Part shown: in pieces, positions 2,014-54,094 of the stretch
How positions within the stretch are numbered: the stretch's first letter is position 1
Layout of the letters: every line of letters starts with the position of its first letter
The notes under the pieces: model-generated
What the model saw: the letters and a program-made list of their open reading frames with translations, nothing else
The model's database searches: none
Told to the model about the DNA's origin: nothing
Made by a program: the position numbers and the translations under genes
Origin: Candidatus Taylorbacteria bacterium RIFCSPHIGHO2_12_FULL_45_16
Lineage (GTDB): Bacteria > Patescibacteriota > Minisyncoccia > Phycocordibacterales > PALSA-1337
DNA length: 64,000 nucleotides
Assembly: GCA_001821055.1 (NCBI GenBank)
Contig: MHRT01000001.1
Location: 27,868-91,867, forward strand
Direction of reading: 5' to 3'

Positions 2014-3360
2014 CTATAACATAGTTCTTACTTGGGTTATCTCTTGCGACAGTAATTGGTTAGTTTTTATTTCTTCACGCATTTTTTCGTATGAGTGAAT
2101 AACTGTCGTGTGGTCTCTTCCACCCAACTTTTCCCCAATTGACGGAAAAGAAATACCAAAATCTTCCCTTAATATATACATAACTACTTGACGAGGTCTC
2201 ACTACCTCCTTGCGTCTAGTTTTGTTGTATATACTTTCTTCGTCTATATTATAAAACTCAGAAACTATTTTCACCACATCCTTAACCGACACCATCTTTT
2301 TTGGTTTTAAGTTGTTTTTGAGAATATTGCGAATCTCGTTGAGGTTCAACTCTTTGTTTTTTAGTTGTATTTGGCAGGCAATAATATTGATTATACCCTC
2401 AATTTCACGGATATTGTCGTTGATTGATGTCGCGATACACTCAACCACCTCATCAGAAAGAGTTATTTTGTGTGGCCGGCACTTACTACGCACAATCATC
2501 ACTCGAGATTCTTGGTCGGGTTCCGGAATATCAACAATCATTCCCATGGAGAATCGGCCACGCAGGCGGTCTTCAAGGCCGGGGATGGTGTTGGGATGTT
2601 TATCTCCAGAAAAGACCAATTGGCGAGCAGTGTCATAGAATGTATTGAAGAAATGGAAAAGTTCCTCTTGAAACTTTTCTTTGTTCGCGAAAAATTGGAT
2701 ATCATCCATGATAATGACGTCATATTTACGGTATTTGTCTTTAAAAGCTTGAACCTTTCCCTCTTGAATAGCGGAAAACAATTCTGAACCAAAACGCTCA
2801 GATGTTAAATAAAATATTTTTTTATCGGGATGAAGCTTTTTTATCTCATTTCCCACAGCTTGAATTATGTGTGTTTTGCCACGACCAGTTTGTCCATAAA
2901 TGAAGAGAGGGTTGTATACTTGGCCCGGACTCTTTACAACCATTTGTGAAGCGGCGTGAGCCAACTCATTAAAAGGTCCCACCACAAGGCTCTCAAAAGT
3001 GTATCTAGGATTTAAGTTGTCTTCCTTGTTGATGTAGAAATCCTGTAACGGCATGGCGATAGTCGGAGCCTGAGACTGTTCTTTTCGTGTATTTTGGCCA
3101 CTTTTACCATCTTCTCGCACAATGACATATTCAAGCGCTCGTACATGCTCATTCATCTGCCTTAAAATGCGTAAAATTGAACTGTGGAACTTTTTTTGGA
3201 GCCATTCGTGGGTAAATGAGTTGGGAACACCGAGGTATATGGTACCTTCATCTTCACGCAGAATGCGGATATCTTTGAACCAGGTAGAAAAATTTGCTTG
3301 GGATACCGCACTTTCAATTTCTATTAGGGCAGTTTGCCACATTTTGCTGTGATCGTTCAT
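2014..3360 (-). CDS. dnaA: Chromosomal replication initiator DnaA
   Basis: The product carries a Walker A GQTGRGKTHI and the VDDIQF box. Its C-terminal DNA-binding domain (EKLGGRDHTTVIHSYEKM) matches the DnaA signature, and the length is 448 aa. Confidence 0.95.
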   Translation of the reverse strand: MNDHSKMWQTALIEIESAVSQANFSTWFKDIRILREDEGTIYLGVPNSFTHEWLQKKFHSSILRILRQMNEHVRALEYVIVREDGKSGQNTRKEQSQAPTIAMPLQDFYINKEDNLNPRYTFESLVVGPFNELAHAASQMVVKSPGQVYNPLFIYGQTGRGKTHIIQAVGNEIKKLHPDKKIFYLTSERFGSELFSAIQEGKVQAFKDKYRKYDVIIMDDIQFFANKEKFQEELFHFFNTFYDTARQLVFSGDKHPNTIPGLEDRLRGRFSMGMIVDIPEPDQESRVMIVRSKCRPHKITLSDEVVECIATSINDNIREIEGIINIIACQIQLKNKELNLNEIRNILKNNLKPKKMVSVKDVVKIVSEFYNIDEESIYNKTRRKEVVRPRQVVMYILREDFGISFPSIGEKLGGRDHTTVIHSYEKMREEIKTNQLLSQEITQVRTML

Positions 3361-4825: not shown

Positions 4826-6151
4826 AACCAGATCCAGCGACCATAAAGACAGGTCGTTTTTGTTCATAAAGATAAGAAAACTATCTTTTTCGTCCAAACC
4901 GAGATTGAAAGCGTCAATCACACGGTCTGAGGTATCCACAATTGAAGAGACAAGATCAATTTCTCCGGTAATGGCGTTTATTCCCCAAATTTTGTCAACA
5001 AATGAAACTCTGCCAACGTACCAATCGTCCGGGTATGTGCCAGCAATGGGTTGTGAGGGTGCGGCGCAATAGACCATTTCTTTGTAGAAGTTGCCCCAGA
5101 CGCATTTGTCAGCCAAGGTGCGGACGATGGCATCAATCCCCTTCCCTTCGGAAATATTGAAAATACTGGAAATAATATTATTGGCATTGCCGGCCATTGA
5201 TAAAAATACACGCTTGGCGTCGGTGCTTACTTTTGTGCTTAATCCCGGTAGGGGACCAAGTATTTTTTTCCAAATGCCAGTTTTTGGGTCAATAAAATAT
5301 AGAAAACCACTCGAATCGGCGGCGCCTTTTGTAGTAATGGCAATCACATTTTCTGACGGCCACTCAACATTAACTTGGGTTATGGGCGTGGAAAATATTT
5401 TGACCACACTGGACCCGTCAAATTTGGCTGTATAGCCCGAGCCAGCACCGTTTTCGTTTATAAGAAAGAATATACGATCTCTCTTTGGTGAACTTGCGTA
5501 AGCGATAATATTTTCCGGTAAACTCTTGCCTTTTAGTTCGTATGGTGTGAGAGTGGCACCAGTTGTTTGGGAGACCGGTGATGTAGTGCTCGTGGCAATT
5601 TTTGGCACGATTCGGGCCTTTAGCTCAGCGTACACACCACCCGAGGTTCCACCTCGGTCAAAACCATCACCATCATCAAGTCCGAAGGCGATAAATCCAG
5701 TCAGATTCTTGTTCCAGGAGCTTTCGTACAATTTCGGCACGACCGTGTTTGATAACGTTACTATATCCAAGGTATTTCCACGCGCTTCATACACATTTCC
5801 TCTACCTCTATCAACCCAGCGGATAGCCGTTGTCGTGCTGGCTGGCTTGGCATTTACCGCCCCGGTAGTACTGGCGCCATATCCACCCGCCGGAGTATTG
5901 CTCAAAAGTCGTAGGGTAGGAATTTTGAGCTGTGTGCCAGGAGTTGCCGAGGTGGAACCTCGGTTATCACCCGGGACAGTTCCCTCTGTCCCCGTCACAA
6001 GACCTCCCCCAGGCCTATTGATTGGAACGAAGCCAGATTGAGGTGTCTCTGGTTCAAGTACAACATCAGTTCCTACACGCATGAAAAAATACCAGTAAGC
6101 CACGCCGGCTATAATGAGGAGGATGAAGAGTGTGAGGAGGAGTTTTTTCAT
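4811..6151 (-). CDS. Secreted or membrane-anchored hypothetical protein, first gene of the envelope cluster
   Basis: The product has an N-terminal TM/signal (MKKLLLTLFILLIIAGVAYWYF) and is Gly/Thr-rich. It contains two copies of the 17-nt palindrome, encoding NRGSTSA and DRGGTSG. Confidence 0.6.
   Translation of the reverse strand: MKKLLLTLFILLIIAGVAYWYFFMRVGTDVVLEPETPQSGFVPINRPGGGLVTGTEGTVPGDNRGSTSATPGTQLKIPTLRLLSNTPAGGYGASTTGAVNAKPASTTTAIRWVDRGRGNVYEARGNTLDIVTLSNTVVPKLYESSWNKNLTGFIAFGLDDGDGFDRGGTSGGVYAELKARIVPKIATSTTSPVSQTTGATLTPYELKGKSLPENIIAYASSPKRDRIFFLINENGAGSGYTAKFDGSSVVKIFSTPITQVNVEWPSENVIAITTKGAADSSGFLYFIDPKTGIWKKILGPLPGLSTKVSTDAKRVFLSMAGNANNIISSIFNISEGKGIDAIVRTLADKCVWGNFYKEMVYCAAPSQPIAGTYPDDWYVGRVSFVDKIWGINAITGEIDLVSSIVDTSDRVIDAFNLGLDEKDSFLIFMNKNDLSLWSLDLVSINN
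5641..5657. repeat. 17-nt palindromic repeat CCGAGGTTCCACCTCGG, copy 1
   Basis: Exact palindrome (7-bp stem, 3-nt centre), located inside the 4811..6151 CDS. Confidence 0.9.
5947..5963. repeat. 17-nt palindromic repeat CCGAGGTGGAACCTCGG, copy 2
   Basis: Exact copy in the opposite orientation to copy 1, in the same CDS about 290 nt away. Confidence 0.9.
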
Positions 6152-26020: not shown

Positions 26021-28225
26021 CTAGTACCTCTTCTTGAAGTCCTTTCTATGTCCGTGATCACCCATTGGCTTGGGCATTTCTTCCTTCTTGGTGAAGAAAT
26101 CAGGATTTGCGGACTTGATTGAAAGATTTAAACGACCCTTGTCATCAACTTCTTTGACCATAACAGGGACTTTGTCGCCTTCTTTGAGGTAAGTTTCTAC
26201 GCGTTCAACTCGGAATGGTGCGATTTCGGAGACATGGACTAGGCCTTCGGCATTCGGACCGATCTTCACAAAAGCGCCAAAGTCCATGAGGCGCACAACC
26301 TCCCCGTCGTATTTTTCTCCTGGCATGTATTCGCGTGTCATATTGAAGATAATTTCTCTGGCTTTAGCGGCGGTCTCGTTTTTACCGGTAATGAATATTG
26401 AACCGTCATCTTCAATGGTGATGTCATCCACATGAGTCACATCGCGAATTTCGTTTATAGTCTTGCCACCGGTACCGATGACTAGGCCGATTTGTTCGGG
26501 TTTGATCTTCATTACGAAGATTTCCGGAGCATTTGGTGAAATCTTTTCGCGCGGAGCTGGAATTTCTTTTTCTATGACATCCAAAATCTTGAAACGGGCG
26601 ACTTTCGCTTTTTCAAATGCCTCAACCAGTATTCCGAGTGGAATCCCTCCAACTTTTACATCCATCTGAACCGCTGTAATACCTTGTCGTGTCCCGGCAA
26701 CCTTGAAGTCCATGTCGCCATGATGGTCTTCAGGTCCTTGTATATCGGTCAAAACTTTATAATCGTAATTTTCAACTGCCCCCTTCCTTGCTTCCTTGCT
26801 TCCTTGCTTCCTTGCTTTTTCTTTCATCATCAAGCCAGAGGCAATCCCAGCCACCGGCGCTTTGATCGGAACGCCACCGTCCATGAGCGCCAGTGTTGAA
26901 CCGCAAACCGAACCCATGGAGGTGGAGCCGTTTGAAGCCATGGCTTCAGAAACGAGGCGGATTGTATATGGGAATTTGTCTTTGTCAGGGATGACCGCGG
27001 TCAACGCTTTTTCCGCCAGAGCGCCGTGGCCGATCATTCGGCGGTTGGTACTGCCGACGCGGCCGGTTTCACCGGTTGAGAATGGTGGGAAATTGTAATG
27101 GTGCATAAAACGCTTTTTTTCTTGGACAATCAGACCATCAATTACTTGCGCGTCGCCAGGACTGCCGAGCGTGAGAGCGGAAAGAATATGCGTGCCGCCG
27201 CGATAAAATATGCCTGATCCATGGAGAATAGGCGAAATTCCCCCAGCCTTGGCGAATAGCGGACGAACTTCATCCATACCGCGTCCATCCGCGCGTTTGT
27301 CGTTCCTGATCGCCTCGTCATGAAGCAAATCATTGACCGCTTCCTCAAATATTTCTTGTGCCATGCCGATATTTCCCTCTGGCATTTTCTCTGTGAACAA
27401 TTTGGTCCACACACCTTTGATTTCGTCAATTCTTTCATGGCCAGGTTGGTTGCCTATGACATACTGCTTTAGCCGAGGTTCCACCTCGGTATCAAAGAGT
27501 TCCTGCGTTCCAGGAGTCGGCTCAGGCAATGTCACCATCACCTTAGGTTTACCGATTTCAGAAATAATTTTATCCTGCCAGACCTGGACCTTCTCGATTT
27601 CTGTTGACGCGCGAGTCAGAGCTTCATTCATAATCGTCTCATCAACTTCTTTGCTAGCCACTTCTATCATATTTATCATGTTATCTTTGCCGCAGGCTAC
27701 CATTTCCATGACGACACCCGCCTCTTCGCGAGCTTTGAAGTCCGGATTGATTAGCCAATCTCCGTTTTTGCCGACGCGCACTGCGGAAACAGGTCCATTC
27801 CACGGGATATCAGAGACGCCCAAAGCAAGCGAAGCGGCGATGACGGAAACCACGTCGGGGTCGTCTTGGTCTATTGAAAGTGTTGTTATAATAACCTGCA
27901 CCTCATTGCGGATTTTTTGGTTGAATAATGGGCGAATAGTACGATCGACGATCCTTCCAGATAGAATTGCTTCTGTTGATGGCCGGCCCTCTCTGCGGAT
28001 GAATCGCGAACCGAGGATTTTACCGGTGGCGTAAAACCTTTCTTCATAATCAACGGTCAATGGGAAGAAGTCTCCATCTTTCAAATCGCCCATCACGGCA
28101 GTGGCTAGGACGGTGGTATTACCATAGCGAAGCATGACCGAGCCGTTGGCCTGATCTGCAAGGTCGTTGAACTCTGCGGTCAATGTCTTGCCGCCGACTT
28201 CAAGCGAGTATTCTTTTTTGTTCAT
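26021..28225 (-). CDS. pnp: Polynucleotide phosphorylase
   Basis: The 734-aa product has two RNase PH domains, a KH domain and a C-terminal S1 domain. It contains an in-frame (CCTTGCTT)x3 repeat and one copy of the 17-nt palindrome. Confidence 0.95.
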   Translation of the reverse strand: MNKKEYSLEVGGKTLTAEFNDLADQANGSVMLRYGNTTVLATAVMGDLKDGDFFPLTVDYEERFYATGKILGSRFIRREGRPSTEAILSGRIVDRTIRPLFNQKIRNEVQVIITTLSIDQDDPDVVSVIAASLALGVSDIPWNGPVSAVRVGKNGDWLINPDFKAREEAGVVMEMVACGKDNMINMIEVASKEVDETIMNEALTRASTEIEKVQVWQDKIISEIGKPKVMVTLPEPTPGTQELFDTEVEPRLKQYVIGNQPGHERIDEIKGVWTKLFTEKMPEGNIGMAQEIFEEAVNDLLHDEAIRNDKRADGRGMDEVRPLFAKAGGISPILHGSGIFYRGGTHILSALTLGSPGDAQVIDGLIVQEKKRFMHHYNFPPFSTGETGRVGSTNRRMIGHGALAEKALTAVIPDKDKFPYTIRLVSEAMASNGSTSMGSVCGSTLALMDGGVPIKAPVAGIASGLMMKEKARKQGSKEARKGAVENYDYKVLTDIQGPEDHHGDMDFKVAGTRQGITAVQMDVKVGGIPLGILVEAFEKAKVARFKILDVIEKEIPAPREKISPNAPEIFVMKIKPEQIGLVIGTGGKTINEIRDVTHVDDITIEDDGSIFITGKNETAAKAREIIFNMTREYMPGEKYDGEVVRLMDFGAFVKIGPNAEGLVHVSEIAPFRVERVETYLKEGDKVPVMVKEVDDKGRLNLSIKSANPDFFTKKEEMPKPMGDHGHRKDFKKRY
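26789..26815. repeat. Tandem 8-mer (CCTTGCTT) x3 inside pnp
   Basis: Three exact 8-nt units (24 nt) preserve the frame. They encode KEKARKQGSKEARKG, a likely insertion relative to other PNPases. Confidence 0.7.
27473..27489. repeat. 17-nt palindromic repeat, copy 3 (inside pnp)
   Basis: Exact CCGAGGTTCCACCTCGG. It encodes TEVEPR in the pnp frame. Confidence 0.9.
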
Positions 28226-28234
28226 AGTGTTTGT

Positions 28235-28251
28235 CCAAGGTTCGACCTCGG
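28235..28251. repeat. Degenerate copy of the 17-nt palindrome in the pnp 5' leader
   Basis: CCAAGGTTCGACCTCGG differs from the consensus at two positions. It lies 10 nt upstream of the pnp start codon. Confidence 0.5.
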
Positions 28252-44863: not shown

Positions 44864-45493
44864 TCAAAGTCGCTTGCCGATCATGAATATTGAACCAATC
44901 AAAAGAAAAAGGATGATTGCACTTGGCTCCGGTACGACTTGGATAAGGTAGAGTTGATCTGTCCGGAATCTCTCCGTATTTACCAAGATAAAGTCCTGAA
45001 TAGTCCCTCCTGGTGCATCTGCTATCTCAAGCGGGTTAAGAGCATCGAGGCCCCAAGAGTAGAGTCCAGTTTGTGGAGCGGCAAAATTGGGTAATATGAA
45101 TTGAAAGTTTCGACTTTCTCCTTCTGGTACCGAATACCAATCCGATGTATCGCTCGGATATGACACTGGTGAAATTAGATAGCCTTCAGCCGGAGATGTT
45201 ACATGGTAATTACCATTCAGGAGTATGGTGGTGTGGCTATATAAGCCGTCGAAAATGTTGTAGTCTTTTCGAACAAATACGTCCATGTCCGTAGCCGTCA
45301 GGCTTATTATTATCGAGAAGCTTCCGTACTTACTGGGATTATTAACCGTTCCAGTGTAATCTGCTCGTAGATTGACCAGATCGAGCTCGAACGCCTGCGT
45401 CAGATTTGAGGCAGTGAGAAAGAGAACGAGGGTAATGCCGACCAGACCAACAGCGAAACTGCCAACCGAATGTCGAATTGCAATGTTCTTCAT
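44864..45493 (-). CDS. PEP-CTERM sorting-domain secreted protein
   Basis: The product has an N-terminal signal. Its C-terminus VPEPSAIILFLLIGSIFMIGKRL (PEP, TM helix, basic tail) is the PEP-CTERM signature. Confidence 0.65.
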   Translation of the reverse strand: MKNIAIRHSVGSFAVGLVGITLVLFLTASNLTQAFELDLVNLRADYTGTVNNPSKYGSFSIIISLTATDMDVFVRKDYNIFDGLYSHTTILLNGNYHVTSPAEGYLISPVSYPSDTSDWYSVPEGESRNFQFILPNFAAPQTGLYSWGLDALNPLEIADAPGGTIQDFILVNTERFRTDQLYLIQVVPEPSAIILFLLIGSIFMIGKRL

Positions 45494-45629: not shown

Positions 45630-46211
45630 ATGTTAATCCCAACCGTTATCGAAAAATCATCGTTTGGCGAACGCGCGTATGACATCTACTCACGCCTCCT
45701 CAAAGAAAATATTATTTTCCTGGGCGGTCCCATCGACGACCACATGGCCAACCTGATCATTGCCCAGCTGCTTTTCCTGCAATCCGAAGATCCAAAGAAG
45801 GAAGTTCAGCTCTACATAAACTCGCCTGGCGGTTCAGTGACCTCAACTTTAGCCATTATTGATACGATGAATCATGTCAAGAATGATATCTCCACTGTTT
45901 GTGTGGGTATCGCCGCTTCTGGTGCGGCCCTGATTCTTTCGGCTGGGACAAAAGGCAAGCGCGTAGCTCTGCCTAACGCCGAAGTTATGATTCATCAGCC
46001 GCTTGGTGGCGCCGAAGGACAGGCTTCGGATATAGAGATCAGCGCCAAGCACATCATCAAGACCCGCGCGACCATCAACAAAATTCTCGCCAAGAATACT
46101 GGCCAGTCACTGTCGAAGATTGATAAAGATGTTGATCGGGATTTCTTCATGGATGCCGAAGAAGCCAAGAAATATGGAATTATTGATCAGGTGGTCAATG
46201 GGAAGAAGTAA
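45630..46211 (+). CDS. clpP: ATP-dependent Clp protease proteolytic subunit
   Basis: The product carries a Ser-His-Asp triad context (GIAASGAAL and MIHQPLGG). It is 193 aa. Confidence 0.95.
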
Positions 46212-46271
46212 TTAATGATTAAAACCCAATGATGCAATGATCAGATTCGGGCCGATTGGCCGCATTGATAA

Positions 46272-46990
46272 TTGGAAACTTATAACATGCGTCTCTACCG
46301 CTTCTACATAAGCGAAATTATTGGCTCACGGAAAGAGATTATTATTCATTCAGATGAATTGGCGAATCAGATTTTGCACGTGTTTCGAATGAAAGTGGGG
46401 GAGAGCGTCATTCTGTTTGATGGTTCTGGTTTTGATTATGAATGTGTCATTGCCAGCTTCGGTCAAACTGACCAAAAATTAGTCACTTTCAATGTCGGGA
46501 GAAAAACGCTAAGCAGATTCATGCCTGCGTGTGAGGTTACTTTATGCGCGGCGGTGGTAAAAAAAATACTTTTGAATGGATTGTGGAAAAAGCCACGGAA
46601 CTTGGCGTGACGAAAATAATCCCGATCATGGCCGAGCGTAGCGAGAAAAAGAATTTAAATGAAGAACGATTGAAGAAAATTGCGGTGGAGGCTAGTGAGC
46701 AGTCAGGACGGGGGACTGTGCCGGAGATTGAGGTAATCATCAGTCTGGAAGAAGCTGTTCAGCGGCTTCCCCGAGGTTCCACCTCGGTGGCATTCCATAC
46801 CGAAGGTAAGCCATTACCCCTGCCTATCCGAGGTGGAACCTCGGTACTCTTCATCGGTCCGGAGGGCGGCTGGTCGCCGAAAGAAATCGAGATGTTTCAC
46901 GCCAATAAAATTCCCATATTTACATTCGGAAAACAAGTTTTGCGGTCTGAGACTGCCGTAGTCGTTACCCTTGCGAAGATATTACTGTAA
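46272..46990 (+). CDS. rsmE: 16S rRNA (uracil1498-N3)-methyltransferase RsmE, split by a -1 frameshift at an A8 tract
   Basis: ORF1 (46272-46610, PUA-like N-domain) and ORF2 (46544-46990, SPOUT domain with ATELGV and GPEGG) are in frames 0 and -1. The joined product aligns to the full RsmE pattern across the A8 tract at 46559-46566. Confidence 0.8.
46771..46787. repeat. 17-nt palindromic repeat, copy 4 (inside rsmE)
   Basis: Exact CCGAGGTTCCACCTCGG. It encodes PRGSTS. Confidence 0.9.
46828..46844. repeat. 17-nt palindromic repeat, copy 5 (inside rsmE, inverse orientation)
   Basis: Exact CCGAGGTGGAACCTCGG, 40 nt downstream of copy 4. It encodes IRGGTS. Confidence 0.9.
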
Positions 46991-47082: not shown

Positions 47083-48159
47083 TTATTTGTTCGACTCAAG
47101 AAAAACAAACACCTTCTCATTGGTCAGCACCGTTTCCGCATAGACAGCCGCACGCTCACGGTCGGCGTCTTTATAATGTTCAACGATGCGATTTACTTCC
47201 TCTTCAATTTCCTGAACTTCAGGTTTGATATTTTCTTTCTTGGCGATCTCATTCAGGATCAATTGCAGCTTGGCTTTCTTTTCAGCATGAGGTCTCCACT
47301 CGGCACGAAGTTCCTCAATGGTTTTCTTGGCGTGCTTCATGTAGTCCTCCAGCTTCACGCCCATCCGTTCGATGTCAGCGGAGAATTGCGACTGGGTCCG
47401 GTTGAGTTCGCTTTCGATCATCACATCAGGCAATTCGATCTTAGTTGCTTCGACCAGAGCATCGGCGATCCGGACGCGAGTTTTTTCTATGGCCTGATCG
47501 CGTTTCTGTCCGGCAATCATGTCCGACAACTTATTCTTGAAATCAGATACATCGGTAAAATCTCCCAAACCCTTGACGAATTCATCTGTAAGTCCCGGCA
47601 TCGCAGCTTCAATAGCTTTGTCATGTTCCTCCGGCGTCATCTTGTCATGATTATGTCCTTCGTGAGACGCATGCTGTTTGCGAACGCGCAAGACTGCTTC
47701 ATCAATATCTTTTTCAGAAACCTTCAAATCTTTCGGATCGGCTTTCTCGGCTTCTTTTTCGGCAATTTTCTTGTAATCAGGCAAAACAATTTCAGGTACT
47801 ACTGAAGTCGTCGCCGTAAATTCCAATGGATTATCTTTGGCTAGCTTGGTAACACGGATCTCTGGCTTACCTATGGCGTCAATTTTTTCAGTAATTAAAA
47901 TATCAATGTATGCTTTTGACAGCGCCAACTCAGCCATCTCTTCCAAGATTGCCATATCTCCAACTTTGGCCACGAGAATGTTTTCTGGAACCCTGCCTTT
48001 GCGAAATCCGTCTAACGTGATTGATTCATTAATGTGATTTATTGCTTCGGCGCGATATTTTCCCCATTCAGCTGCGGCAACCGAACCGGTGATCTCCACA
48101 CGGGATTTGTCGAGCTTTTTAGCGATGGCTGAGTCGTATGATTTGGTTGTTTCAATCAT
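47083..48159 (-). CDS. tig: Trigger factor (short)
   Basis: The product follows the N-terminal pattern MIETTKS...ITLDGFRKGRVPENILVAKVG, then a PPIase-like domain and a C-domain. I placed the start at the internal Met. Confidence 0.85.
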   Translation of the reverse strand: MIETTKSYDSAIAKKLDKSRVEITGSVAAAEWGKYRAEAINHINESITLDGFRKGRVPENILVAKVGDMAILEEMAELALSKAYIDILITEKIDAIGKPEIRVTKLAKDNPLEFTATTSVVPEIVLPDYKKIAEKEAEKADPKDLKVSEKDIDEAVLRVRKQHASHEGHNHDKMTPEEHDKAIEAAMPGLTDEFVKGLGDFTDVSDFKNKLSDMIAGQKRDQAIEKTRVRIADALVEATKIELPDVMIESELNRTQSQFSADIERMGVKLEDYMKHAKKTIEELRAEWRPHAEKKAKLQLILNEIAKKENIKPEVQEIEEEVNRIVEHYKDADRERAAVYAETVLTNEKVFVFLESNK

Positions 48160-48246
48160 GAAAATGAGTCTACACGGAAAGTTGGTCTGAAGCAAGAAAA
48201 ACTCCCGGCAAGGGAGCTTTCTTTGTCTGAAAATTTGAATTATCGC

Positions 48247-50123: not shown

Positions 50124-50984
50124 CTACAGTTTTCCCGGCCTTTTCCAATTCTCCTCTGCGAAGTAGCCAACAAACAAAGGGTGATGGAAACTGGAACGAT
50201 TGACCCACAGAAGGAAGGGCTTGTCGATTACCAACGGTGGATCAGATGGTGTGCAACACAGCAGACGTATTCCCATAGAGGCTGCACTTTCGACCTTGGC
50301 TCCGAGCTCGTTCATCCTGAACTTGGTTTGCTGAAGAGCTTGCTCGATGACCCATGGTCCAGCGGAGCTTGTCAGTTTCATACCTTCCATCCAGGAAATA
50401 TCAATTTCCCTGTTGTAATCAATCATCGGGAAGATCGCTCCATCGAATTCCATAGCCGGCTTCATTTCAGTTGAGATGACACCTATCAGCTCCAGCAAGT
50501 CGAACCCAACTGGTGGTTCGCTGAGGATGGTCATTGACACGATGTCTCCATTCTTCGCCTTGACTGAAAGTATGGGGTTATTGGAATGCTTTGACCTGAA
50601 GAAAGAAACACCAGCCTCCAGATAGACAGCAGGGTACATCCTGTTCCTGATGCTAGTAATCCTTCCCGGCTTAATCCACTCGAGAAAAAGCTTGAAGACG
50701 CTAGCGACACCGAAACTTTTGGAGCTCTTCTTGAACTCCTCCAGTTTGATCTGAAAGCCCCGCTCCTCCAAGAATTCATTGATAGTCGAGACGCTTTCCG
50801 ATGCTACTGACTCGATTTCTGGAAGAGCACAGATCTCGCCTCTAGCTCTCATGTAGTATTCCCGGATGAATCTTCTTTGGTCTTTGGTTTGTGGCTGCCA
50901 ATCATCAGAACTGGCACTAGCCATGCTTTCTGCGGCAATGAGACAACCACCGATCGGAGGCAGACATACTGTCATAGTTTTCAT
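50124..50984 (-). CDS. Serpin-like protein, N-terminally short (286 aa)
   Basis: The product carries a hinge/reactive-loop-like segment NELGAKVESAASMGIR and the C-terminal serpin signature VIDKPFLLWVNR...PLFVGYF. It also has an s3A/s4C-like segment VSMTILSEP...LLELIG. Confidence 0.5.
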   Translation of the reverse strand: MKTMTVCLPPIGGCLIAAESMASASSDDWQPQTKDQRRFIREYYMRARGEICALPEIESVASESVSTINEFLEERGFQIKLEEFKKSSKSFGVASVFKLFLEWIKPGRITSIRNRMYPAVYLEAGVSFFRSKHSNNPILSVKAKNGDIVSMTILSEPPVGFDLLELIGVISTEMKPAMEFDGAIFPMIDYNREIDISWMEGMKLTSSAGPWVIEQALQQTKFRMNELGAKVESAASMGIRLLCCTPSDPPLVIDKPFLLWVNRSSFHHPLFVGYFAEENWKRPGKL

Positions 50985-53489: not shown

Positions 53490-53780
53490 TTACGCCAATC
53501 TGACTTCCTTTCCGAAAACCTTGGCGATGCGATAGAGGGTAGTGAGTGTAAATGAGTGTCGGCCGCTCTCGAGGCGGGCAATAACAGACTGGGGCATGCC
53601 AGCCTTCTTGGCGAGAGTAGCTTGGCTCATCTTCTTGGCTTGGCGTGCTTCGCGGATCTGTCGGATCATGCTGTGACGTATGAGGCTTTCCTCGTGTGCT
53701 TTGCGAAAAGCTGGAGATTTCAAGTGTTTTGCTAACACTTCTTCCCACGTATATAGTTTGTGATCGCCGATAATTTTCAT
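53490..53780 (-). CDS. higA: HigA-like XRE-family HTH antitoxin
   Basis: The product carries the HTH MSQATLAKKAGMPQSVIARLESG. Its start overlaps the stop of the upstream toxin gene by 4 nt. Confidence 0.7.
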   Translation of the reverse strand: MKIIGDHKLYTWEEVLAKHLKSPAFRKAHEESLIRHSMIRQIREARQAKKMSQATLAKKAGMPQSVIARLESGRHSFTLTTLYRIAKVFGKEVRLA

Positions 53781-54094
53781 ATTATTTTTTTATTAATTTC
53801 CTTTAATAATAAGGCGTATAGTTTTTGTGCCATCTTGACTTCATTTCGGGGAGTTTTTACAGTTTTCTTTTGGAATGCAGTTAGTATATACACAGTTGAA
53901 TATTCAATACAAAACAAAACTCTGTAGGAACTTACTCGCAACTCTTTTATGGGTCCCCTGACTTCTTTTAAATATATTTGCTCAAAGTTTTCATCACTCA
54001 ATGCAGTGATCGCTTCACGAATTTTGTGACGATTTTCGTTATCTAGTGAATCAAAAAACTCTCTAGGACGTTCGAACCATGATATATTCAGCAT
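53777..54094 (-). CDS. higB: HigB/RelE-superfamily toxin
   Basis: This 105-aa RelE/ParE-fold-like protein sits upstream of the HTH antitoxin, the higBA gene order. Confidence 0.6.
   Translation of the reverse strand: MLNISWFERPREFFDSLDNENRHKIREAITALSDENFEQIYLKEVRGPIKELRVSSYRVLFCIEYSTVYILTAFQKKTVKTPRNEVKMAQKLYALLLKEINKKII

What the first reader, a model, noticed from the sequence alone, without database searches (positions are those of the whole stretch)
46272..46990. rsmE split by a -1 frameshift at an A8 run, either a programmed slip or a homopolymer error
The PUA and SPOUT halves of RsmE lie in frames 0 and -1. They join seamlessly (…AAVVKK|NTFEWIVEKATELGV…) when the reader slips back 1 nt within GTA-AAA-AAA-A (46559-46566).

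This sequence is a canonical X-XXY-YYZ slippery heptamer (A-AAA-AAA). The gene is otherwise intact.
Basis: seen in the sequence. Interest (0 to 1): 0.5.

Follow-up and report, generated by a model that had tools for sequence, protein, structure and literature searches.

The report
Broken rsmE gene at A8 run
In one groundwater Candidatus Taylorbacteria population, the 16S rRNA methyltransferase gene rsmE carries a genuine one-base deletion inside a run of eight A's; this is most likely an ordinary recent frameshift mutation that can at best be partly bypassed by polymerase or ribosome slippage, not an evolved programmed frameshift and not an assembly error.

Summary
rsmE is split into frame 0 (46287-46565) and frame -1 (46565-46990) at an A8 run (46559-46566), and the joined 234-aa protein is a full-length RsmE.

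The window matches a Candidatus Taylorbacteria MAG. The same A8 and split occur in independent assemblies: 22-24 contigs, five NCBI protein records, MEGAHIT contigs, a strain with SNPs and a protein-level read assembly. Sequencing or assembly error is therefore unlikely.

The shift is not conserved. All 16 orthologous loci read in frame as GTN-AAR-AAR-GAY (VKKD). One has GTAAAAAAAGAT, which becomes the observed sequence on loss of its G. Another intact ortholog has an in-frame A9 (VKKN).

I found no significant downstream structure and no Rfam match. The organism barely uses Shine-Dalgarno sequences. An upstream hairpin is marginal and also forms in intact orthologs.

Best reading: a lineage-specific one-base deletion giving a young pseudogene or a leaky allele. 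Full-length RsmE (D94N) would arise only through unprogrammed RNA-polymerase stuttering (A8 to A9) or a -1 ribosomal slip on A-AAA-AAA. Selected recoding is not excluded (about 10%). Interest is low.

The parts
46287..46565 (+). rsmE 5' part in frame 0: PUA-like domain plus the first about 12 residues of the SPOUT domain, ending ...CAAVVKK
   Evidence: Deposited as a separate 107-aa hypothetical protein (P0124, A3C79_03135).
46559..46566 (+). A8 run. A-AAA-AAA (46559-46565) is the slippery heptamer in frame 0. This is the site of the one-base deficit relative to in-frame orthologs.
46566..46610 (+). Out-of-frame tail of the frame-0 product (ILLNGLWKKPRNLA) and its stop codon TGA at 46608-46610. 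It has no similarity to RsmE.
46565..46990 (+). rsmE 3' part in frame -1: the rest of the SPOUT methyltransferase domain (NTFEW...GPEGGWS...LRSETA...), stop TAA at 46988-46990.
   Evidence: Deposited as hypothetical proteins of 120-148 aa (P0031, P0121-P0123).
46519..46557 (+). Possible RNA hairpin just 5' of the A run (-15.5 kcal/mol, z -2.08). Similar hairpins form in intact orthologs, so it is probably incidental to the coding sequence.
45630..46211 (+). clpP, the conserved upstream neighbour (synteny clpP-rsmE-tig).
47083..48195 (-). tig (trigger factor), the conserved downstream neighbour.

Best explanation
This is a genuine, lineage-specific one-base deletion in rsmE, fixed in one near-clonal Candidatus Taylorbacteria population.

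The ancestral sequence at this site was either GTA-AAA-AAA-GAT (VKKD, as in ortholog L005), which lost the G of the Asp codon, or an in-frame A9 (VKKN, as in ortholog L025), which contracted by one A through replication slippage. Either route gives the observed GTAAAAAAAAT.

Standard decoding yields a 107-aa PUA fragment that stops at TGA 46608-46610. That fragment lacks all the SAM-binding and catalytic parts, so the allele is a loss-of-function or strongly hypomorphic allele.

A8 / A-AAA-AAA is intrinsically slippery. A minority of full-length 234-aa RsmE (with Asn in place of the usual Asp94) is therefore expected in two ways: RNA polymerase adds an extra A (an A9 mRNA), or two tRNA-Lys slip -1 on the ribosome. 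This leakiness is adventitious, not an evolved programme.

Shown here: the DNA state, its reproducibility, its absence from orthologs and the lack of stimulators. Inferred: the mutational route, that slippage occurs in this organism and its level, and that loss is tolerated because RsmE is dispensable elsewhere.
For: The A8 and split are identical in the MAG contig (L001), two MEGAHIT contigs (L002; L003 with SNPs) and a protein-level read assembly (P0123). The C-terminal fragment is on 24 contigs read (listed in 32 blocks) and in five NCBI protein records. The N-terminal fragment is on 22 contigs.

No intact protein more than 75% identical exists among 5.8 billion proteins.

All 16 orthologous loci read in frame as GTN-AAR-AAR-GAY. 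L005 has GTAAAAAAAGAT. L025 has an in-frame GTAAAAAAAAAC. Asp occupies this position in 103 of 106 homologue sequences that matched the motif, and the Asn here is what the shifted reading produces.

No significant downstream structure was found (z -1.65, -0.46, -0.99) and there was no Rfam hit. SD-like motifs precede only 3 of 40 genes against a 9% background. The upstream hairpin is not specific to this lineage. rsmE is the only split gene found in the 64 kb.

Literature: poly-A runs gave 10% (7 A), 40% (9 A) and 63% (11 A) frameshifting in E. coli reporters, and conservation of the site across genera is the criterion for calling a shift programmed (PMC3711429). An A8 created by a one-base deletion in apoB yields about a tenth full-length product (PMC1088944). 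Single indels in poly-A tracts of otherwise intact genes are common in reduced genomes and can be bypassed by transcriptional slippage (PMC3017870). An rsmE deletion is viable in M. smegmatis (bioRxiv 10.1101/2020.01.15.907279).
Against: The gene shows no other lesion. It keeps all 71 columns that are invariant among 26 sequences, including GPEGGW and LR.ETA downstream of the shift.

A relative-rate test against the closest intact homologue shows no significant acceleration (17 vs 11 changes, p = 0.34). This fits a very recent mutation, but it fits continued purifying selection on a recoded gene equally well.

The allele appears fixed, with no A9 or intact variant in any assembly. An intact homologue carries Asn at this position, so D94N need not inactivate.

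Reads, RNA and protein were not available, so minority A9 alleles and the actual slippage level are unknown.
Confidence: 0.7

Rival explanations
1. Selected (programmed) recoding. rsmE in this lineage is normally expressed through transcriptional realignment at A8 or -1 ribosomal frameshifting on A-AAA-AAA. This would set a low RsmE level and/or produce a PUA-only protein alongside the full-length enzyme.
For: There is a perfect X-XXY-YYZ heptamer in the correct frame and an A8 run. The gene is otherwise intact with all invariant residues kept. The allele is fixed in every assembly. There is no significant rate acceleration. A marginal hairpin lies directly 5' of the run (z -2.08). A8 runs are thought to be used productively in some IS elements (PMC1088944).
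Against: The shift is absent from all 16 orthologous loci, including the closest (75% identity), and is known only from one near-clonal population. It therefore fails the conservation criterion of PMC3711429. There is no significant 3' stimulator and no Rfam element. An SD-type stimulator is implausible in an almost SD-less organism. The hairpin also forms in intact orthologs. The shift destroys a near-invariant Asp codon. The search returned no report of recoding in rsmE.
Confidence: 0.1
2. Sequencing or assembly artefact: the real genome has A9 (or A7-G-A) and the gene is intact.
For: Homopolymers are classic indel-error sites. Raw reads could not be inspected. Many of the public assemblies may re-use the same site's libraries.
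Against: The same A8 appears in the deposited MAG contig, two k141 MEGAHIT contigs (one a different strain with 4 SNPs in 3.3 kb), Logan and JGI contigs, five NCBI protein records and a read-level protein assembly. No intact version is present among 5.8 billion proteins. Five other 8-base homopolymer runs (T8 x4, C8 x1 on the + strand) lie inside uninterrupted minus-strand ORFs, and no other gene in the window is split. From general knowledge, consensus errors at 8-nt runs are rare in short-read data.
Confidence: 0.04
3. Phase-variable contingency locus: the A tract toggles between A8 (OFF) and A9 (ON) by replication slippage, switching m3U1498 methylation on and off.
For: The homopolymer lies inside an ORF. 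An ortholog has an in-frame A9 at the same site. Loss of RsmE gives low-level aminoglycoside resistance in M. smegmatis, so an OFF state could be advantageous.
Against: All sequences recovered have A8, and the N- and C-terminal fragments are identical on 22-24 contigs. No ON allele is present in any database searched. An 8-nt tract is short for efficient switching, and the gene class is atypical (PMC3711429, names surface-protein and restriction-modification methyltransferase genes as examples).
Confidence: 0.04
4. Functional split gene: the two ORFs are translated separately (ORF2 from ATG 46544, preceded by GAGGT) and assemble into an active enzyme.
For: ATG 46544 has a GAGGT six bases upstream, and the ORFs overlap by 67 nt.
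Against: The break lies inside the SPOUT domain, which begins at residue 82, not between domains. ORF2 would lack the first strand and ORF1 would carry a 14-residue nonsense tail. SD-like motifs are not used by this organism (3 of 40 genes). The GAGGT/ATG arise from the Glu-Val and Leu-Cys codons of the normal frame, and no homologue is split this way.
Confidence: 0.02

Closest known systems
Single indels in poly(A) tracts of otherwise intact genes in reduced bacterial genomes (Buchnera, Blochmannia), partly rescued by transcriptional slippage (Tamas et al. 2008, as cited in PMC3017870)
   Same: A one-base indel inside a sense-strand A run of a housekeeping gene that is otherwise intact. The host is a small-genome bacterium (inferred for a CPR member). 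There is no detectable rate acceleration, and the same ambiguity between a recent pseudogene and slippage rescue applies.
   Different: The tract here is A8, shorter than the 9-12 nt tracts usual there. The genome is 44% GC, not extremely AT-rich. The shift is not shared between species. No RNA data are available.
E. coli dnaX -1 programmed ribosomal frameshift (A-AAA-AAG with an upstream SD and a downstream hairpin)
   Same: A lysine-codon X-XXY-YYZ heptamer and the -1 direction.
   Different: No conserved site, no 3' hairpin at 5-9 nt and no usable SD stimulator. Here the shift would be needed to make the only functional product, not a second shorter one (PMC3711429).
Programmed transcriptional realignment at A/T runs (Thermus thermophilus dnaX A9, Shigella mxiE, IS630/IS3 transposases with A8-A9)
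   Same: A run of 8 or more A's, where an extra A in the mRNA fuses two ORFs (PMC1088944).
   Different: Those sites are conserved among homologues or element copies. This one is unique to one population, and orthologs are in frame.
Human apoB one-base deletion leaving an A8 run, with about 10% full-length product by transcriptional slippage
   Same: A mutation-created A8, with the frame restored by insertion of one A. It is a clear case of non-programmed rescue (PMC1088944).
   Different: Eukaryotic polymerase and a disease allele. It is cited only as a quantitative analogy.

Membership tests
RsmE 16S rRNA (uracil1498-N3)-methyltransferase (TIGR00046; Pfam PF20260 + PF04452) | N-terminal PUA-like domain followed by a C-terminal SPOUT methyltransferase domain | tested here: met
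   The fused 234-aa protein matches PUA_4 at 29-56 (30.3 bits) and Methyltrans_RNA at 82-232 (150.8 bits), and TIGR00046 at 157 bits over 7-232. It aligns to solved RsmE structures 5vm8, 4e8b and 1vhy.
RsmE 16S rRNA (uracil1498-N3)-methyltransferase (TIGR00046; Pfam PF20260 + PF04452) | Conserved family motifs in the C-terminal half of the SPOUT domain (GPEGGW..., LR.ETA; their SAM-binding role is general knowledge of the fold) retained | tested here: met
   All 71 columns invariant among 26 sequences are kept, including G191-E193-G194-G195-W196 and R220-E222-T223-A224.
RsmE 16S rRNA (uracil1498-N3)-methyltransferase (TIGR00046; Pfam PF20260 + PF04452) | One uninterrupted open reading frame | tested here: not met
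   There is a -1 frame change at 46559-46566. Frame 0 stops at 46608-46610.
RsmE 16S rRNA (uracil1498-N3)-methyltransferase (TIGR00046; Pfam PF20260 + PF04452) | Orthologous position (synteny with close relatives) | tested here: met
   The order clpP-rsmE-tig is seen in the window and in L022, L023 and L025; clpP-rsmE is seen in L019, L020, L021 and L024.
RsmE 16S rRNA (uracil1498-N3)-methyltransferase (TIGR00046; Pfam PF20260 + PF04452) | m3U1498 methylation activity | not testable with these tools
   This needs rRNA modification mapping in an uncultured organism.
Programmed -1 ribosomal frameshift | X-XXY-YYZ slippery heptamer in the 0 frame at the ORF junction | tested here: met
   A-AAA-AAA at 46559-46565, with frame-0 codons AAA (46560) and AAA (46563).
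Programmed -1 ribosomal frameshift | Shift site conserved among homologues from several genera (criterion of PMC3711429) | tested here: not met
   All 16 orthologous loci are in frame. The shift occurs only in one near-clonal population.
Programmed -1 ribosomal frameshift | Downstream stimulatory hairpin or pseudoknot 5-9 nt after the heptamer | tested here: not met
   Folds of 46566-46665, 46567-46626 and 46500-46700 gave z -1.65, -0.99 and -0.46. The only local hairpin starts well beyond the 5-9 nt spacing, and there was no Rfam match. Pseudoknots were not modelled.
Programmed -1 ribosomal frameshift | Upstream SD-like stimulator | tested here: inconclusive
   GGTGGT abuts the run, but the organism shows SD-like motifs before only 3 of 40 genes against a 9% background. 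The 16S 3' end is not in the window.
Programmed transcriptional realignment | Homopolymeric A/T run of about 8-9 or more at the junction | tested here: met
   A8. This is the lower limit of lengths reported as productive (PMC1088944).
Programmed transcriptional realignment | Run and frame arrangement conserved among homologues | tested here: not met
   Orthologs have AAG-interrupted runs or an in-frame A7-G or A9.
Programmed transcriptional realignment | Heterogeneous A-run length in transcripts | not testable with these tools
   No RNA data are available.
Phase-variable homopolymer contingency locus | Tract-length polymorphism among strains or samples | tested here: not met
   A8 is present in all four DNA copies (window, L001-L003), and the split fragments are identical on 22-24 contigs. 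No in-frame allele is in the protein database. Within-sample reads were not seen.
Adventitious slippage rescue of a poly(A) frameshift (Buchnera/Blochmannia type) | A single indel inside a sense-strand A run of an otherwise intact gene | tested here: met
Adventitious slippage rescue of a poly(A) frameshift (Buchnera/Blochmannia type) | Full-length product actually made through slippage | not testable with these tools
   This needs transcript sequencing and proteomics. It is inferred only from reporter data in other systems.

The most novel reading that the evidence does not exclude
rsmE of this CPR bacterium is a maintained recoded gene. The A8 tract, perhaps helped by the nascent-RNA hairpin directly upstream, makes RNA polymerase or the ribosome shift frame at a set rate. 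The cell would then deliberately make a little full-length RsmE (and possibly a stand-alone PUA protein). This would be the first recoded rRNA-modification enzyme and a case of recoding in an SD-less, leaderless-type translation system.
Probability: 0.1. Interest if true: 0.5.

Novelty: new member of a known kind. Interest (0 to 1): 0.2.

Why it matters
The main value is for annotation. The two 'hypothetical proteins' in the deposited Taylorbacteria MAGs (A3C79_03135 and A3C79_03140, and their counterparts) are the two halves of a frameshifted rsmE.

The case suggests that this population has lost or strongly reduced m3U1498 methylation of 16S rRNA. That change is viable elsewhere and is linked to low-level aminoglycoside resistance in mycobacteria.

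It is also a clean natural example of how a Lys-Lys-Asp/Asn codon run becomes a mutational hot spot: A7-G, A9 and A8 states are all seen among orthologs. If the frameshift turned out to be maintained by selection, it would extend slippage rescue of housekeeping genes from insect endosymbionts to free-living-community CPR bacteria. Nothing here demonstrates that.

Tried and rejected
- **Protein-seeded scans.** I scanned GTDB species genomes and JGI metagenome contigs for further frameshift-bearing relatives. They returned 10 and 5 loci, all in frame or too distant, and none from the same species.
- **Search with the 107-aa frame-0 product.** It found only itself, so no diverged lineage carries the same truncated product.
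- **Relative-rate test and private substitutions.** The test gave 17 vs 11 changes (p = 0.34). This sequence has 7 private deviations at near-invariant columns against a median of 2. The excess is mild and not decisive, so it cannot date the mutation.
- **RNA structure.** Downstream folds and Rfam gave nothing significant. The upstream hairpin looked promising (z -2.08), but comparable hairpins form in intact orthologs.
- **Internal SD plus ATG (a split-gene or SD-stimulator idea).** I rejected this because the organism almost never has SD-like motifs.
- **Other broken genes as a sign of a poor assembly.** Candidate ORF pairs turned out to be distinct genes: dnaA plus an unrelated ORF, SLT plus HTH, and Gp49 plus HTH.
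- **Literature.** The search returned no report of rsmE recoding.

Full report
**What is in the sequence**

The window reads GGTGGT-AAAAAAAA-TAC at 46553-46569. The A run is exactly eight bases, 46559-46566. It is the only A8 on the + strand, and nothing in the 64 kb is longer than 8.

ORF1 runs from TTG 46272 or ATG 46287 to TGA 46608-46610, with codons GTA (46557), AAA (46560), AAA (46563), ATA (46566). ORF2 (46544-46990) has codons AAA (46559), AAA (46562), AAT (46565), ACT (46568), which is the -1 frame.

Joining frame 0 up to 46565 with frame -1 from 46565 gives a 234-aa protein...CAAVVKK|NTFEWIVEKATELGV.... This protein matches Pfam PUA_4 and the RNA-methyltransferase SPOUT domain (E 3e-44). 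It matches TIGR00046 (RsmE) over residues 7-232 in one piece. It aligns without a gap at the junction to 25 homologues and to solved RsmE structures.

One correction applies: the break lies about 12 residues inside the SPOUT domain (domain start 82, break after 93), not at the domain boundary.

**Where the window comes from and whether the A8 is real**

The window is identical over 6.4 kb to contig MHRO01000006.1 of GCA_001822595.1, a Candidatus Taylorbacteria MAG.

- The C-terminal piece is deposited as hypothetical proteins in five NCBI records (OHA24952.1, OHA17287.1, OHA29770.1, OHA32714.1, OHA43791.1). It is also in JGI, ENA and Logan assemblies, on 24 contigs read, with 32 index blocks listed.
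- The 107-aa frame-0 product, including its nonsense tail, is on 22 contigs, all identical.
- Two MEGAHIT contigs from ENA carry the same A8. One of them (L003) is a different strain, with 4 SNPs in 3.3 kb.
- A protein assembled directly from reads of SRR3990167 begins MRGGGKKNTFEW, which is the -1 frame read through the run.
- No intact protein closer than 75% identity exists among 5.8 billion sequences.
- Five other 8-base runs (four T8 and one C8 on the + strand) lie inside uninterrupted minus-strand ORFs, and I found no other split gene in the window.

A sequencing or assembly artefact is therefore unlikely, although I could not inspect reads.

**Comparison with orthologs**

Synteny (clpP-rsmE-tig) identifies true orthologs. 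In 16 orthologous loci the site reads in frame as GTN-AAR-AAR-GAY, Val-Lys-Lys-Asp. Most interrupt the run with AAG.

Two loci are informative. L005 has GTA-AAA-AAA-GAT, and deleting its G gives exactly the window's GTAAAAAAAAT. L025, an intact gene 54% identical, has GTA-AAA-AAA-AAC: an in-frame A9 encoding Val-Lys-Lys-Asn, the same residues the shifted reading gives here.

The lesion is thus one base missing from a Lys-Lys-Asp/Asn codon run. It arose either by loss of the G or by contraction from A9 to A8. Asp is present in 103 of 106 homologue sequences that matched the motif. Acidic residues also occupy this position in distant solved RsmE structures.

**Tests for programming**

- *Conservation.* There is none. 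The shift occurs only in one near-clonal population, which fails the criterion used to call programmed shifts (PMC3711429).
- *3' stimulator.* Folds of the downstream 60, 100 and 201 nt are not unusual (z -0.99, -1.65, -0.46), and Rfam finds nothing.
- *5' elements.* A hairpin at 46519-46557 abuts the run (-15.5 kcal/mol, z -2.08). However, intact orthologs form comparable hairpins from the same codons, for example L019 at -17.7 kcal/mol.
- *SD motifs.* SD-like motifs precede only 3 of 40 genes, below the 9% background. Neither an SD stimulator nor SD-driven re-initiation at ATG 46544 is credible.
- *Literature.* The search returned no report of recoding in rsmE.

**Tests for decay**

The gene has no second lesion and keeps every invariant residue. 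A relative-rate test against the closest intact homologue is not significant (17 vs 11, p = 0.34). This sequence has the most private changes at near-invariant columns (7 against a median of 2), which is only suggestive.

By my own rough estimate, a neutral 700-bp gene would pick up another disabling change within a few per cent of neutral divergence. The population differs by only about 0.1%. These data therefore cannot separate a young pseudogene from a constrained, recoded gene.

**Most likely mechanism**

Standard decoding gives a 107-aa PUA fragment with a 14-residue nonsense tail and no catalytic domain.

A8 / A-AAA-AAA is intrinsically slippery. RNA polymerase can add one A, so that an A9 mRNA reads GUA-AAA-AAA-AAU-ACU. 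Alternatively, the P- and A-site tRNA-Lys can both re-pair one base back. Either event gives the same full-length protein, with Asn94.

Reporter data in E. coli gave 10% for 7 A and 40% for 9 A (PMC3711429). An A8 created by a deletion in apoB yields about a tenth full-length product (PMC1088944). Transcription insertions rise exponentially with run length (PMC5574713). A minority of functional RsmE is thus plausible, but this is inferred, not shown.

The same ambiguity is described for single poly-A indels in Blochmannia and Buchnera genes (PMC3017870). Loss of RsmE is tolerated in M. smegmatis and slightly raises aminoglycoside tolerance. Fixation of a null or hypomorphic allele is therefore unsurprising.

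**Verdict**

This is a real, lineage-specific frameshift mutation at a homopolymer. It is a known kind of event in a new gene and lineage. It is probably a recent loss-of-function or leaky allele (confidence about 0.7).

| Alternative | Probability |
|---|---|
| Selected recoding | about 0.1 |
| Artefact | about 0.04 |
| Phase variation | about 0.04 |
| Functional split gene | about 0.02 |

Interest is low (0.2).

Noticed in passing
window 5641-5657, 5947-5963, 27473-27489, 28235-28251, 46771-46787, 46828-46844; L019 1497-1513 and 1548-1564: A 17-nt perfect palindrome, CCGAGGT-NNN-ACCTCGG (central TCC or GGA), occurs 6 times in the window against 0.09 expected. Most copies lie inside ORFs, in variable protein loops: rsmE, the PNPase linker and a 446-aa hypothetical protein. 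In rsmE and the hypothetical protein it is read as RGSTS/RGGTS, and copies often come in pairs with opposite central triplets. The closest rsmE ortholog (75% aa identity) has both copies at the homologous positions with the triplets flipped, while the flanks have diverged with indels. Strain L003 carries a compensatory double change (T46777G + A46781C) that preserves the palindrome. This looks like a conserved or mobile intragenic hairpin element, loosely reminiscent of Rickettsia palindromic elements or REP sequences (resemblance from memory only). Its function is unknown.
   Followed up: partly
window-wide: start regions of 40 long ORFs, e.g. 16784, 17676, 19098, 26001 (minus strand): SD-like motifs precede only 3 of 40 genes, below the 9% background. 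Many starts are instead preceded by TATAAT-like boxes 6-10 nt upstream, which suggests widespread leaderless or very short-leader mRNAs in this Taylorbacteria genome.
   Followed up: partly
P0123 (protein-level assembly from SRR3990167), equivalent to window 46544-46990: This read-derived version of ORF2 differs from the window at three residues, including GPEGGW to GPECGW in an invariant motif. It could be read noise, or a subpopulation accumulating damaging changes. The latter would favour the pseudogene reading.
   Followed up: no
window 2014-3360 (-): Full-length dnaA is present (DnaA_N, Bac_DnaA and Bac_DnaA_C domains), so the window probably lies near the chromosomal replication origin.
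   Followed up: no
window 53490-54094 (-): A Gp49/HigB-like toxin gene (53777-54094) overlaps by 4 nt an HTH_3 antitoxin-like gene (53490-53780). This is a likely toxin-antitoxin pair.
   Followed up: no
window 44864-45493 (-): A 209-aa protein with no Pfam match has a C-terminus (VPEPSAIILFLLIGSIFMIGKRL) that resembles a PEP-CTERM sorting signal (the resemblance is from memory and was not tested).
   Followed up: no
window 50124-50984 (-): A 286-aa ORF matches only the C-terminal about 70 positions of the serpin profile, at the gathering threshold (27.1 bits). It may be a divergent or truncated serpin.
   Followed up: no
window 46212-46286: There is a 75-nt spacer between clpP and rsmE. In several orthologs rsmE starts within 0-2 nt of the clpP stop codon (L020, L021, L022). 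Translational coupling to clpP may therefore have been lost in this lineage.
   Followed up: no
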